Shown one piece after another: positions 27,747-31,614 of a stretch of 64,000 nucleotides of DNA. Origin of the DNA: a phage; the sequence record PZ509022.1, one strand, 5' to 3'. The translations under genes and the position numbers were made by a program. A model generated the notes under the pieces. It saw only the letters and a program-made list of their open reading frames with translations, ran no database searches and was not told the origin of the DNA. Numbering within the stretch: the first letter of the stretch is position 1; each line of letters starts with the position of its first letter.

Positions 27747-27959
27747 TCATTTTTGTCCTGTATTTACTTTATGCCGATGCACGGCCTTAACTTTATCAAG
27801 GTATTTTTCAAAATTTCGCAATCTAGTATAGTCTGCCGGAGATTGGTTGAGTGATACTTCTCGACGCAAAGCTGAAATGATATTTCCAACTTCCCTACGA
27901 ATTTCATCTAATTGAAGAACAGTAAGATTGCGAAGTTGCTTTTCAGTTAATTGTAGCAT
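27747..27959 (-). CDS. Small hypothetical protein (rI.1-like)
   Basis: 70-aa ORF between tk and rI. Confidence 0.5.
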
Positions 27960-28001
27960 ATATACCCCTTTAGTTAGATAAACCTATTTATAACTTTTGC
28001 A

Positions 28002-28583
28002 CTAACCGAGCTTTTTAGTTAATTCGTTCCAATGTTTTCTACACAAAGAAACATAAATTTCATCACCAATACAGATTTGATTACCTTCTTTAACTGGTGT
28101 TCCATCTTCCATTAATCGAGCTGTCATAATAGCTTTTTTACCACAATGACAAACTGCCTTTAGTTCAATAAGTTTATCTGCAATCGCCAAAAGTTCTTTA
28201 GAACCTTCAAATAATTTTCCAGCGAAATCAGTCCTTAGCCCATAAGCCATAACAGGAACATTATATGTATCAACAATTCGACTTAATTGATGCACCTGTT
28301 CAGTTTTTAAAAACTGAGCTTCATCTACAAATACACAATGAATATCTTTTTGTGCTTCAGCCCATTTATAGAACTCAAAAATATCCATATCATCCGTAAT
28401 AATATTCGCTTCCTGCTTAATTCCAATGCGAGAAACGACTTCACAGACAGAATCGCGAGTATCAATAGCAGGCTTAAGAACTAATACACCCATTCCGCGT
28501 TCTTTATAATTATGTGCAGCAGTCAAAAGAGAAGCAGATTTTCCAGCATTCATTGCTGCGTAAGTAAAAATTAAACTCGCCAT
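28002..28583 (-). CDS. tk: Thymidine kinase
   Basis: 193-aa ORF; P-loop MNAGKS, Walker B VFVDEAQF, C-terminal zinc cysteines (CHCGK...CRKH). Confidence 0.92.
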   Translation of the reverse strand: MASLIFTYAAMNAGKSASLLTAAHNYKERGMGVLVLKPAIDTRDSVCEVVSRIGIKQEANIITDDMDIFEFYKWAEAQKDIHCVFVDEAQFLKTEQVHQLSRIVDTYNVPVMAYGLRTDFAGKLFEGSKELLAIADKLIELKAVCHCGKKAIMTARLMEDGTPVKEGNQICIGDEIYVSLCRKHWNELTKKLG

Positions 28584-28592
28584 ATCACCTTC

Positions 28593-28784
28593 TTAAAGCA
28601 TATTCACATAAGCTATTAATTCGTTTTCTTTCTTATCAAACCGATCAGCAAATTCTTCTTGCTGTTCGGGAGATAGCGGGCCGTATTCATCATAAAAGGT
28701 GTTTGCTTCTGTATGCTCATCTAGAAGTTCATGGATAAGCTCAAACAATTTATCTTTTTGTTCTTTACTCAGACTCATAACCAT
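28593..28784 (-). CDS. Small acidic hypothetical protein
   Basis: 63-aa ORF. Confidence 0.5.
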   Translation of the reverse strand: MVMSLSKEQKDKLFELIHELLDEHTEANTFYDEYGPLSPEQQEEFADRFDKKENELIAYVNML

Positions 28785-29002
28785 GTCACCTTTAAGCAGT
28801 ATTCTTCTACATGCTGTTTACGACCTTTCTTATCAATAAAGGTATATTCAACGAATGTTCCAATGTAGTCTTTATCTACATCATGTGGACTATTAATTGG
28901 ACATTTAGTACGGCAAATGCGTTCCCATTGACGAATAATTACTGCCTTATTCTTTGGGTCATACGGATGTGGATAATGTATATTCATAATAACGGTTCCC
29001 AA
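28775..29002 (-). CDS. Small hypothetical protein
   Basis: 75-aa ORF. Confidence 0.5.
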   Translation of the reverse strand: MGTVIMNIHYPHPYDPKNKAVIIRQWERICRTKCPINSPHDVDKDYIGTFVEYTFIDKKGRKQHVEEYCLKVTWL

Positions 29003-29451
29003 TCAACAATCACAATTTCTAATTTAGAGGAATATGTATCTAAAATCCCCTCAATAATATCCCAGTTCCCTTTACCTATGGCTGCTCCAATCCTAGGCAT
29101 ATAGATTGTAGGTTTAATCAGTTTATTTTCACCAAACTCATTTAATTCTAACATACAATTCATTAAAGCGGAATACTCAAAATTTGGCCCTGGTTGAAAT
29201 TGAGTATAAAGATTAAAGCAGTAAGCTTTATGAGTCCTAAAGTATTTTTCATAGACTGAGTAAGAACCGAGTTTAGTTACATCGCCCCATTCTGTCTGTA
29301 ATTTATCAGCTTCCAAAATTTTAGGGAAAGCTTTGGTTAATTGACCCGCTACGCCTGAACCCATAGTATGAAAACAATTGCATCCATGCGCAATATTTTT
29401 ACCTTCAGCGAAAAGGGCGACAATATCGCCCTTGATATATTTTACAATCAT
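28984..29451 (-). CDS. Macro-domain (ADP-ribose binding/processing) protein
   Basis: 155-aa ORF; KGDIVALFAEGKNIAHGCNCFHTMGSGVAGQL resembles the macrodomain nucleotide-binding loop. Confidence 0.6.
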   Translation of the reverse strand: MIVKYIKGDIVALFAEGKNIAHGCNCFHTMGSGVAGQLTKAFPKILEADKLQTEWGDVTKLGSYSVYEKYFRTHKAYCFNLYTQFQPGPNFEYSALMNCMLELNEFGENKLIKPTIYMPRIGAAIGKGNWDIIEGILDTYSSKLEIVIVDWEPLL

Positions 29452-29789
29452 CTAGTACTCAATCCTCGATTATAAGAATCTACCAAACGGTCAACCATTG
29501 AATGACAAGCGGCTTTATCTTTCTCCTCCGCAACTGAACATTCTAAGGTATTCCACTTTTTAGCATATCGTTTTAATAATGTATCGTTTTTGTATCTGCT
29601 TGATTTATCTCTTTCTCCGTCTTTATATGCATATATTAATTTCTGTGCAAATTCAGCTTGGCATGCTTTATTTTTCCCACAATAATCTGCCGCAGTGCGG
29701 TTTACATATTCTCTAATTTCAGTATATGATGTATCTGCTAACGCAGAAAATGAAATTAATCCTATACATAAAACCAAAATTTTAGTCAT
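29448..29789 (-). CDS. Secreted hypothetical protein
   Basis: 113-aa ORF with a classical signal peptide (MTKILVLCIGLISFSALA-DTS) and several cysteines. Confidence 0.55.
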   Translation of the reverse strand: MTKILVLCIGLISFSALADTSYTEIREYVNRTAADYCGKNKACQAEFAQKLIYAYKDGERDKSSRYKNDTLLKRYAKKWNTLECSVAEEKDKAACHSMVDRLVDSYNRGLSTR

Positions 29790-30327
29790 TTACTATTTCC
29801 AAAAGTTTATTATTTTTAAGGTAATTAGCCTTTTCTAGGACTTCAGAAGCATATTTAGAACCAGCTTTAACATTCCATCCCGAATTATAAGAGGATATTG
29901 CTTTTCTTATATCGCCCTTATGTATATTTAACCAATAAGAAAGTTCAATGTACGCCCAGGAAGCTGAATTGGACCGTTTATTCAACATTCTTTTTATTTC
30001 AGCATCGGTCATATTATAACCAAGTTCCTTAACTCTCGCTCGCATAGTAGGCAAATAATTTTGGAACATTCCGTAGGCGTGATGCTTTGGTTTAGATTTT
30101 AAATTAACTCCGCCAGAGCTTTCTTGCCATAAAATGGCTGCCATTATATGACCTAATCCGCTCTTGTGGATATTTTTGTGTGTTTTATATTTTCCATCCT
30201 TAGAAAATTGTTCCCCGAATTGATACGCGTAACGCATGTTATCGAGTTGGACATTACTGAAAGTATGCTCGGAGCTATGCGCCATCATTGAAATGGCCAA
30301 TAGACCAGCGAGTAGTGCTTTTCTCAT
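29782..30327 (-). CDS. Secreted lytic-transglycosylase-like protein
   Basis: 181-aa ORF with a signal peptide (MRKALLAGLLAISMMAHS) and an SLT-like catalytic region (ILWQESSGG). Confidence 0.6.
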   Translation of the reverse strand: MRKALLAGLLAISMMAHSSEHTFSNVQLDNMRYAYQFGEQFSKDGKYKTHKNIHKSGLGHIMAAILWQESSGGVNLKSKPKHHAYGMFQNYLPTMRARVKELGYNMTDAEIKRMLNKRSNSASWAYIELSYWLNIHKGDIRKAISSYNSGWNVKAGSKYASEVLEKANYLKNNKLLEIVND

Positions 30328-30334
30328 GCTTACC

Positions 30335-30796
30335 TCATTGAGTTTTAATTACTGCTTTAGAAGCCTTTCCTGGTAAACGACGACTGTTGATAATTGCCAT
30401 CCTACATTGAAGTGACGGGTCTTTGAACTTCGCGTTAGGTTTACAAACTGTAAATCCAAGCCAAAGATTTCCATCTGTGATTTCTAAACGTCCAGGACGA
30501 TATTCAACCCCATCAATAAAATCCTCGTCAATGTCAGGACGCGGAGGCATACTCAGGAATTCATTAACTTCTAAAACATGGTCTTTTATTTTATGGAATA
30601 ATTCAAAAACATATGTCTCATCAATCTCCCGTTGAATTGCACGATCAAGAAGATGTTGAGAATATTTTAGATGAAACGATGAGACTCCTGCTGCTTTTGA
30701 TGCCTCACGAATCTCATTGTTAATTTGACGAAACTCCGACTCAAAGTGACGACGAAGCTTATTTCGACGGATAAAAACTTCTGTATTGATAGTCAT
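30335..30796 (-). CDS. regB: Site-specific endoribonuclease RegB
   Basis: 153-aa ORF; same length and position as T4 RegB (between tk and denV); translation consistent with RegB as I recall it. Confidence 0.88.
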   Translation of the reverse strand: MTINTEVFIRRNKLRRHFESEFRQINNEIREASKAAGVSSFHLKYSQHLLDRAIQREIDETYVFELFHKIKDHVLEVNEFLSMPPRPDIDEDFIDGVEYRPGRLEITDGNLWLGFTVCKPNAKFKDPSLQCRMAIINSRRLPGKASKAVIKTQ

Positions 30797-30821
30797 GTTA
30801 TTCTCCTCTTAACTGATAGAA

Positions 30822-30854
30822 AAATTATACCACAGTCAAGAGGAAAAGTAAACA
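30822..30854 (-). promoter_or_regulatory. Sigma70-type early promoter upstream of regB
   Basis: Plus strand shows gtaaac at 30848-30853, a 17-bp spacer, and attata at 30824-30829. Confidence 0.5.
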
Positions 30855-30855
30855 G

Positions 30856-31176
30856 TTATTCTTTAAATCTAATCAATTTATTCATAGACTTTGAAACTTC
30901 TGCACGAACCTCATGTAGATTTTTGAGCTGTTCAAGACGCTGCTCATAGTAAGCAATTTCATCTTCTTCGAGACAGTCCTGTGAATCTTCTTTAAGATAA
31001 CGTGCATAGTCCTGGAAAGCGTTACGAACTACTTCCTGGAAGTCATCAAGACTTTGAATTTTCTTAGGAGCAACAGATACACGACGAGGGGCAGTATAAT
31101 ACTCATAACCAAACCCTGCGCTTAATTGAGCCATTAGTATTTTTCCTCTGGTTGGAACACTGCGCGACAAGCCCAC
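30856..31176 (-). CDS. Hypothetical protein
   Basis: 106-aa ORF. Confidence 0.5.
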
Positions 31177-31400
31177 ATACTGGCTTCTTTGAGTTTCATT
31201 TTAGCAATAGTTAACTGATCGAGGCTTTCGGCGTAATTCTTCGCGAGTTCATCATCTTCACAGCTATCAAATGCTTCCCAGAATTCATCATATAAAGCAT
31301 CAAAGATAAGCCCTAAACGAACTTCAGCATCTTTGATAGCATTCACTTTACTGATTTTATCGTCAGTATGTGGTTTATAACCTTTAATGTCTTCAATCAT
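31134..31400 (-). CDS. Small acidic hypothetical protein
   Basis: 88-aa ORF. Confidence 0.5.
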
Positions 31401-31614
31401 ATTTTACTTCCTCACCTGTTCCCAAATCATATTCAACTAAACGAATAGGTTCATGAATGCCATATCCTTGAACAGAAATTTCTGTCGTAGGATAAATTCC
31501 ATTAATATCACCCATGTTCCATGCTTCGTTAAATTGCTGTTCGCCTGAATTACTAAACCACTCGGCGAAAGCATTTAGCACATCTTCAGAACCTTCAATA
31601 ATTATCTTTGCCAT
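31393..31614 (-). CDS. Small hypothetical protein
   Basis: 73-aa ORF. Confidence 0.5.
   Translation of the reverse strand: MAKIIIEGSEDVLNAFAEWFSNSGEQQFNEAWNMGDINGIYPTTEISVQGYGIHEPIRLVEYDLGTGEEVKYD

What the first reader, a model, noticed from the sequence alone, without database searches (positions are those of the whole stretch)
28984..29451. Macro-domain protein between tk and regB
The 155-aa ORF has an N-terminal segment (KGDIVALFAEGKNIAHGCNCFHTMGSGVAGQL) resembling the glycine-rich ADP-ribose-binding loop of macrodomains. Phage macrodomains are candidates for reversing ADP-ribosylation of nucleic acids or proteins, or for degrading ADP-ribose-derived immune signals.
Basis: partly seen in the sequence, partly recalled or inferred. 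Interest (0 to 1): 0.5.

Follow-up and report, generated by a model that had tools for sequence, protein, structure and literature searches.

The report
T4 Tk.4/AdfM anti-DarTG2 macrodomain

Summary

The function is published. A T4 transposon screen (bioRxiv 10.1101/2025.11.20.689424) found tk.4 as the only gene needed on DarTG2 hosts. A clean knockout became sensitive, and the gene was named adfM. No biochemistry exists for Tk.4.

What I add:
- Tk.4 is not a DarG-type enzyme. It has Gln84 where DarG, TARG1 and PhiKZ "AdfM" gp104 have the catalytic Lys, and it has no detectable sequence similarity to gp104.
- It groups with BT1257 and SCO6735. SCO6735 cleaves thymidine-linked ADP-ribose from DNA by a Gln-dependent, Lys-independent mechanism.
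- The G124A change in the phosphate-binding loop matches none of 240 related phage records.

Verdict: observation confirmed, interpretation supported, already known, low interest.

The parts
28984..29451 (-). tk.4 / adfM coding sequence, 155 aa, a stand-alone macrodomain
   Evidence: ORF list. One residue different from T4 ORF 60.5 / Tk.4. Macro fold confirmed.
29347..29388 (-). Codons 22-35 (HGCNCFHTMGSGVA): macrodomain loop 1, carrying N25 and the G31-x-G33 motif
   Evidence: N25, G33 and A35 are invariant, and H22 and G31 at least 90% conserved, in 50 homologues. N25 aligns with SCO6735 N27 and PhiKZ AdfM N23, both shown by mutation to matter for activity.
29200..29202 (-). Codon 84 (CAA, Gln), at the position of the catalytic Lys of TARG1 (K84) and DarG (K80)
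   Evidence: Read directly from the sequence. Alignments. Q84 is invariant in 50 homologues, and a regular-expression count found a T-Q motif in 98 of 120 hits. The equivalent SCO6735 Gln85 is essential for dT-ADPr hydrolysis.
29062..29097 (-). Codons 119-130 (PRIGAAIGKGNW): phosphate-binding loop 2
   Evidence: P119, I121, G122, G124, G127 and G128 are at least 90% conserved in the family. The loop aligns with PRIGCGLAGG of BT1257 and SCO6735 and PRIGCGLDRL of TARG1.
29080..29082 (-). Codon 124: GCC (Ala) here, GGC (Gly) in T4, PYPS2T and vB_EcoM_FT. A private G124A change at the position of SCO6735 G128 / TARG1 G123
   Evidence: No exact match of the surrounding 61 bases in 50,697 phage records; the best match is 98.4%. 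The biochemically active PhiKZ AdfM naturally has Ala at this position.
29448..29451 (-). ATGA overlap: vs stop codon and tk.4 start codon
   Evidence: Sequence and ORF coordinates. That this means translational coupling is my inference.
28984..28987 (-). ATGA overlap: tk.4 stop codon and tk.3 start codon
   Evidence: Sequence and ORF coordinates. The 70-aa product matches phrog_2008 over its full length.

Best explanation
This is the T4-type anti-DarT factor AdfM (Tk.4). It is a stand-alone macrodomain enzyme made from the regB-vs.1-vs-tk.4-tk.3-tk gene run.

The host DarTG2 toxin DarT2 ADP-ribosylates thymidines in single-stranded phage DNA, which blocks replication. Tk.4 most likely binds the ADP-ribose with its two glycine-rich loops and cleaves the thymidine-ribose bond, restoring the DNA.

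What is shown: the identity with T4 Tk.4, the macro fold, the active-site residues, and (from the literature, for T4) that the gene is required on DarTG2 hosts.

What is inferred: that protection works by hydrolysis, and that the chemistry is the Lys-independent, Gln84/Asn25-dependent type described for SCO6735 rather than the Lys-dependent type of DarG and PhiKZ AdfM.
For: Identity:
- One residue different from T4 Tk.4, with the same gene order.

Genetics, from the literature:
- tk.4 was the only significant hit in a saturated T4 transposon library on a DarTG2 host. A clean knockout was sensitised. The gene was named adfM (bioRxiv 10.1101/2025.11.20.689424).
- T4 lacking adfA and adfN stays DarTG2-resistant, so another factor was expected (PMC11825919).

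Fold and class:
- pLDDT 94.7.
- The only matches in PADLOC and NCBIfam are the DarG models, covering the macrodomain part only.

Mechanism:
- Q84 aligns with SCO6735 Gln85, and N25 with Asn27.
- SCO6735 hydrolyses dT-ADPr DNA, rescues cells from DarT toxicity, and loses activity in the Q85A and N27S mutants (PMC9411070).
- A phage macrodomain of the other lineage, PhiKZ gp104, removes DarT2-made ADP-ribose from TNTC DNA in vitro (PMC13309987).
Against: - There is no biochemical assay of Tk.4 itself. The preprint only says hydrolysis "seems likely".
- Tk.4 lacks two lysines that SCO6735 uses to hold DNA: K34 aligns with S32, and K89 has no counterpart in the loop after Q84.
- The window allele carries G124A at a glycine that is at least 90% conserved. 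SCO6735 G128E at this position lowers activity. This is softened because active PhiKZ AdfM has Ala there.
- SCO6735 Q85A still inhibits DarT in vitro by binding, so part of the protection could be non-catalytic.
Confidence: 0.8

Rival explanations
1. Tk.4 neutralises DarTG2 mainly by binding and inhibiting the DarT2 toxin, acting as an antitoxin mimic, rather than by cleaning the DNA.
For: Catalytically dead SCO6735 (Q85A), DarG (K80A) and TARG1 (K84A) all inhibit DarT in vitro, and SCO6735 does so most strongly (PMC9411070). The genetic data for T4 do not separate the two modes.
Against: Tk.4 lacks the C-terminal DarT-binding domain of DarG: it matches only positions 2-146 of the 329- and 338-position DarG models. 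The strict conservation of the catalytic-site residues N25 and Q84 and of both loops across distant phages argues for selection on enzyme activity.
Confidence: 0.1
2. Tk.4 mainly processes small ADP-ribose derivatives. It could be a Poa1p-like ADP-ribose 1''-phosphate phosphatase, an O-acetyl-ADP-ribose deacetylase, or a degrader of TIR/Thoeris-type signals. This is what the database labels "phosphatase" and "O-acetyl-ADP-ribose deacetylase" suggest.
Against: The one phenotype found for tk.4 among the six conditions reported in the preprint section I read was with DarTG2, a DNA-modifying system. The closest sequence relatives are BT1257 and SCO6735, not Poa1p. Poa1p has Ser, not Gln, at position 84. 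The labels were transferred by homology and never tested.
Confidence: 0.07
3. Tk.4 reverses ADP-ribosylation or RNAylation made by the phage's own transferases (Alt, ModA, ModB), tuning the phage takeover of the host.
For: T4 encodes three ADP-ribosyltransferases (established knowledge; cited in the reference list seen). SCO6735 and TARG1 also act on protein glutamate-ADP-ribose.
Against: As far as I know, Alt and Mod mainly modify arginine, which TARG1-class macrodomains are not known to cleave. tk.4 is dispensable on plain E. coli K-12 and becomes needed only with DarTG2.
Confidence: 0.03

Closest known systems
Phage T4 Tk.4 = AdfM (anti-DarT factor Macrodomain), HIDEN-SEQ preprint, bioRxiv 10.1101/2025.11.20.689424
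   Same: 154 of 155 residues identical. Same position between vs and tk.3, and same ATGA overlaps.
   Different: One substitution, G124A, in the phosphate-binding loop. It matches none of the 240 related phage records that cover this stretch. The window also has one fewer small phrog_653 ORF next to tk than T4.
Streptomyces coelicolor SCO6735 (PDB 5E3B) and Bacteroides BT1257 (PDB 2AFC, 2FG1), the Gln-type branch of the ALC1/TARG1-like macrodomain class
   Different: Only 20-29% identity. Tk.4 has Gly23 where SCO6735 has Val25. It lacks K34 and K89 and the longer mobile loop. It is a phage counter-defence gene rather than a bacterial housekeeping or orphan antitoxin gene.
DarG antitoxin macrodomain (T. 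aquaticus 5M31/5M3E, M. tuberculosis 5M3I) of DarTG2
   Different: No C-terminal DarT-binding domain. Gln84 replaces the catalytic Lys80. No F-P-T-K-x-H-W motif. No adjacent darT gene. NCBIfam DarG score 26.5 bits against a cut-off of 250.
PhiKZ gp104, also named AdfM (Cell Rep 2026, PMC13309987)
   Same: A stand-alone phage macrodomain that counters DarTG2. Shares the conserved loop-1 Asn (N23 / N25).
   Different: No detectable pairwise similarity to Tk.4 (BLASTP E 4.2). gp104 is a close DarG relative (E 9e-25 to 5M3I) and has the catalytic Lys. It is imported into the phage nucleus. Its type is found in 276 phage records, against 2,742 for the Tk.4 type. The two proteins share a name but come from different lineages.
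Human TARG1/OARD1 and yeast Poa1p
   Different: TARG1's Lys84/Asp125 pair corresponds to Gln84/Gly126 in Tk.4. Poa1p has Ser at position 84 and acts on ADP-ribose 1''-phosphate.

Membership tests
Macrodomain superfamily (Pfam PF01661) | Three-layer alpha/beta/alpha macro fold | tested here: met
Macrodomain superfamily (Pfam PF01661) | Loop 1 with conserved Asn and a G-x-G motif, and a glycine-rich phosphate-binding loop 2 | tested here: met
   N25, G31 and G33 are present and conserved. Loop 2 is PRIGAAIGKG, with G124A private to this window. Pfam score 23.3 against a cut-off of 22.
Macrodomain superfamily (Pfam PF01661) | Binds ADP-ribose | not testable with these tools
   Needs ITC, a crystal soak, or a docking and MD study.
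ALC1/TARG1-like class, Gln-type branch (SCO6735 / BT1257) | Closest sequence and structure relatives are within this class | tested here: met
ALC1/TARG1-like class, Gln-type branch (SCO6735 / BT1257) | Gln at the position of TARG1 K84 / DarG K80, held by the loop-1 Asn | tested here: met
   Q84 and N25 align with SCO6735 Q85 and N27. Both are invariant in 50 homologues.
ALC1/TARG1-like class, Gln-type branch (SCO6735 / BT1257) | Hydrolyses thymidine-linked ADP-ribose on single-stranded DNA | not testable with these tools
   Shown for SCO6735. For Tk.4 there is only the genetic requirement on DarTG2 hosts.
T4 AdfM (Tk.4) | Orthology with T4 tk.4: near-identical sequence in the same gene order | tested here: met
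   154 of 155 residues identical; flanked by vs and tk.3 as in T4.
T4 AdfM (Tk.4) | Needed for growth on DarTG2-carrying hosts | not testable with these tools
   Shown for T4 in the literature. Not shown for this G124A allele.
DarG antitoxin (NCBIfam NF048014, PADLOC DarG) | Two-domain protein of about 330-340 aa: macrodomain plus C-terminal DarT-binding domain | tested here: not met
   155 aa. Matches only model positions 2-146 of 338. Scores 26.5 bits against a cut-off of 250.
DarG antitoxin (NCBIfam NF048014, PADLOC DarG) | Catalytic Lys (K80) in the F-P-T-K-x-H-W motif | tested here: not met
   Tk.4 has L-Y-T-Q84-F-Q-P.
DarG antitoxin (NCBIfam NF048014, PADLOC DarG) | Encoded next to a darT toxin gene | tested here: not met
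   The neighbours are vs and tk.3.
PhiKZ-type AdfM (gp104) | Detectable sequence homology to gp104 / DarG-type macrodomains | tested here: not met
   BLASTP E 4.2 between Tk.4 and gp104. gp104 matches DarG at E 9e-25, whereas Tk.4 alone matches DarG at E 0.003-0.03.
Poa1p-type ADP-ribose 1''-phosphate phosphatase (source of the 'phosphatase' label) | Poa1p active-site residues (the PDB mutant entries are H23A, S30A, F152A) and phosphatase activity | tested here: inconclusive
   By my count of chain positions in the alignment, which assumes a three-residue tag offset, Poa1p H23 matches H22 and S30 matches T29. Position 84 is Ser in Poa1p and Gln here. F152 was not mapped. Activity is not testable.

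The most novel reading that the evidence does not exclude
Tk.4 has the Gln-type active site of SCO6735, an enzyme that also removes ADP-ribose from protein glutamates and from uracil in RNA. Tk.4 may therefore be a broad-spectrum eraser that protects T4 against several ADP-ribosylating defences on DNA, RNA and protein, not only DarTG2. Phages would then have recruited two mechanistically different macrodomain lineages (the Gln type here, the Lys type in PhiKZ) for overlapping jobs. The private G124A allele in this window could change that spectrum or weaken activity.
Probability: 0.2. Interest if true: 0.5.

Novelty: already known. Interest (0 to 1): 0.2.

Why it matters
Tk.4/AdfM completes a picture in which T-even phages carry layered counter-measures against DNA ADP-ribosylation: AdfA, AdfN for guanine, and AdfM for thymine.

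The useful point beyond the literature is that two unrelated-looking macrodomains now share the name AdfM. The T4 type carries a Gln, not the DarG Lys, at the catalytic position. It is found in about ten times more phage records than the PhiKZ type (2,742 against 276 of 50,697).

This gives a concrete hypothesis to test: that Tk.4 uses the Lys-independent SCO6735 chemistry. It is also a caution against transferring PhiKZ or DarG mechanistic detail to T4-like phages, or trusting the database label "phosphatase".

Tried and rejected
- Direct BLASTP of Tk.4 against PhiKZ AdfM gp104 gave no meaningful alignment (E 4.2). I rejected the idea that the two AdfM proteins are orthologues.
- The CmdTAC paper (mRNA ADP-ribosylation) mentions no T4 macrodomain.
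- The 2026 Thoeris preprint mentions macrodomains only as the host ThsA sensor.
- The 2021 review of bacterial and viral ADP-ribosylation gave no hit for the phage-macrodomain terms I searched; it cites T4 only in its reference list.
- The promoter and terminator scan of 27900-31500 found no more sites than shuffled controls: 12 against 13.1 promoter-like, 3 against 1.6 terminator-like. I make no claim about transcription signals beyond noting a good sigma-70-like match upstream of regB (30852..30824).
- I considered filing the protein as DarG because PADLOC and NCBIfam match only DarG models. I rejected this because it lacks the second domain, the catalytic Lys and a neighbouring toxin gene.
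- I considered whether G124A marks a dead allele. This cannot be decided here. Active PhiKZ AdfM has Ala at that position, and by a regular-expression reading of loop 2 about 4 of 120 homologues carry T, N or S there.
- An early script compared the wrong record and returned empty difference lists. It was redone correctly.

Full report
**What is in the sequence.** The window is a Tequatrovirus (T4-like) genome. The 2.8 kb around the finding is 99.1% identical to Escherichia phage MLP2 and Yersinia phage PYPS2T, and 818 phage records match it. All neighbours are on the same strand. PHROG matches identify them as regB (30335..30796), vs.1 (29782..30327), vs (29448..29789), tk.3 (28775..28987), one phrog_653 small ORF (28593..28784) and tk (28002..28583). 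The vs stop overlaps the tk.4 start in ATGA, and the tk.4 stop overlaps the tk.3 start in ATGA. I read this as translational coupling in one transcription unit, which is an inference.

**Identity.** By tblastn the protein is 99.4% identical to T4 ORF 60.5, that is Tk.4. The single difference from T4 and PYPS2T is G124A, GGC to GCC, at window 29080..29082. Public records already label this gene macro domain protein, Poa1p-like family protein with Macro domain, ADP-ribose binding module protein, or phosphatase.

**Is it a macrodomain?** Yes.
- Single-sequence Pfam evidence is marginal: PF01661, 23.3 bits against a cut-off of 22.
- A profile of 50 diverse homologues (A1) matches solved macrodomains strongly: BT1257 5.8e-25, SCO6735 5.7e-20, TARG1 5.6e-18, Poa1p 1.2e-16, M. 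tuberculosis DarG 4.1e-16, T. aquaticus DarG 3.3e-14. Coronavirus and alphavirus macrodomains score only about 1e-3.
- The AlphaFold2 model is confident, with pLDDT 94.7 and pTM 0.90.

The protein therefore belongs to the ALC1/TARG1-like class.

**What it does, from the literature.**
- The HIDEN-SEQ preprint (bioRxiv 10.1101/2025.11.20.689424, Nov 2025) infected a DarTG2-expressing E. coli with a saturated T4 transposon library. tk.4 was the single significant hit, and a clean deletion sensitised T4 to DarTG2. The authors noted structural similarity to DarG and named the gene adfM. They say hydrolysis "seems likely", and the section describing tk.4 reports no enzymology.
- This fits the earlier finding that T4 lacking both adfA and adfN remains DarTG2-resistant (PMC11825919).
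- Independently, PhiKZ gp104 was also named AdfM. It was shown to remove DarT2-made ADP-ribose from TNTC DNA, and an N23A mutant was impaired (PMC13309987).

**What I add on mechanism.**
- Tk.4 and PhiKZ gp104 have no detectable pairwise similarity (BLASTP E 4.2).
- gp104 is a close DarG relative (E 9e-25 to 5M3I) with the F-P-T-K-x-x-W catalytic-lysine motif.
- In Tk.4 the aligned residue is Gln84, in L-Y-T-Q-F. It is invariant in 50 homologues, and a regular-expression count found the T-Q motif in 98 of 120 hits.
- TARG1's second catalytic residue, Asp125, aligns with Gly126.
- This is the active-site pattern of SCO6735 and BT1257, the best profile matches. SCO6735 cleaves thymidine-linked ADP-ribose from DNA and rescues cells from DarT. 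It lacks the TARG1 and DarG catalytic residues and depends on Gln85 and Asn27: the Q85A mutant is dead and N27S nearly so. A backbone-positioned water was proposed as the proton donor (PMC9411070).
- Tk.4 N25 and Q84 align with these residues.

I therefore infer that Tk.4 is a Gln-type, Lys-independent dT-ADPr DNA glycohydrolase. Three caveats apply. Tk.4 lacks SCO6735's DNA-holding lysines K34 and K89. It has Gly23 where SCO6735 has Val25, although only the backbone is invoked there. Inactive SCO6735 still inhibits DarT by binding, so a non-catalytic contribution is possible.

**Family membership.** Tk.4 is not a DarG. It has 155 aa rather than about 335, matches only the macrodomain half of the DarG models (26.5 bits against a cut-off of 250), has no catalytic Lys and has no adjacent darT. 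It works like the macrodomain half of DarG, but its lineage is the BT1257/SCO6735 branch.

**The G124A allele.** Residue 124 is Gly in at least 90% of homologues. It aligns with SCO6735 G128 and TARG1 G123, and SCO6735 G128E lowers activity. None of the 240 phage records that match the surrounding 61 bases is identical; the best is 98.4%, and the one difference in that record (vB_EcoM_FT) is this base. Ala is a mild change, and active PhiKZ AdfM naturally has Ala at the aligned position. By a regular-expression reading of loop 2, a few homologues carry T, N or S there. I expect the allele to work, but this is untested.

**Distribution.** Tk.4-type proteins are found by tblastn in 2,742 of 50,697 phage records, across Escherichia, Klebsiella, Salmonella, Pseudomonas, Vibrio, Acinetobacter and other phages. 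The PhiKZ/DarG type is found in 276.

**Rivals.** These are binding-only inhibition of DarT2, a Poa1p-like role on small molecules, and reversal of the phage's own Alt/Mod modifications. Each is less likely, for the reasons given in its entry.

**Verdict.** The function is already published for T4, so novelty is "already known" and interest is low. The residual value lies in the Gln-type active site, the fact that two distinct lineages share the name AdfM, and the private loop substitution.

Noticed in passing
window 29080-29082 (variable base 29081): Private G124A substitution (GGC to GCC) in the phosphate-binding loop of Tk.4, at a glycine conserved in at least 90% of homologues. No exact match of the surrounding 61 bases in 50,697 phage records.
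   Followed up: partly
window 28593-28987; L002 2965-3544; L001 2094-2861: The number of small ORFs between tk and tk.4 varies. The window has two: one phrog_653 ORF and tk.3. T4 has three: tk.1 and tk.2 (both phrog_653) and tk.3. PYPS2T has four. This accounts for the two-piece alignment and the roughly 370-base length difference seen.
   Followed up: partly
window 29448-29789 (vs) and 29782-30327 (vs.1): Both proteins start with signal-peptide-like hydrophobic N-termini (MTKILVLCIGLISFSALA and MRKALLAGLLAISMMAHS). That is unexpected for a protein annotated as a modifier of the cytoplasmic valyl-tRNA synthetase. The HIDEN-SEQ preprint reports that vs matters for T4 growth in minimal medium.
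   Followed up: no
window 29413-29433: A G+C-rich inverted repeat with an 8-pair stem lies inside codons 7-13 of tk.4. The scan flagged it as terminator-like on the opposite strand. The number of such sites in the region is not clearly above chance (3 against 1.6 expected).
   Followed up: no
window 30824-30852, minus strand: Good sigma-70-like promoter match (TTTACT, 17-base spacer, TATAAT, with an upstream TG) just upstream of regB. It could drive the regB-to-tk gene run. It is a consensus match only.
   Followed up: no
literature: Two groups independently gave the name AdfM to proteins from different macrodomain lineages: T4 Tk.4 (Gln type) and PhiKZ gp104 (DarG-like, Lys type). This naming collision could mislead annotation transfer.
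   Followed up: yes
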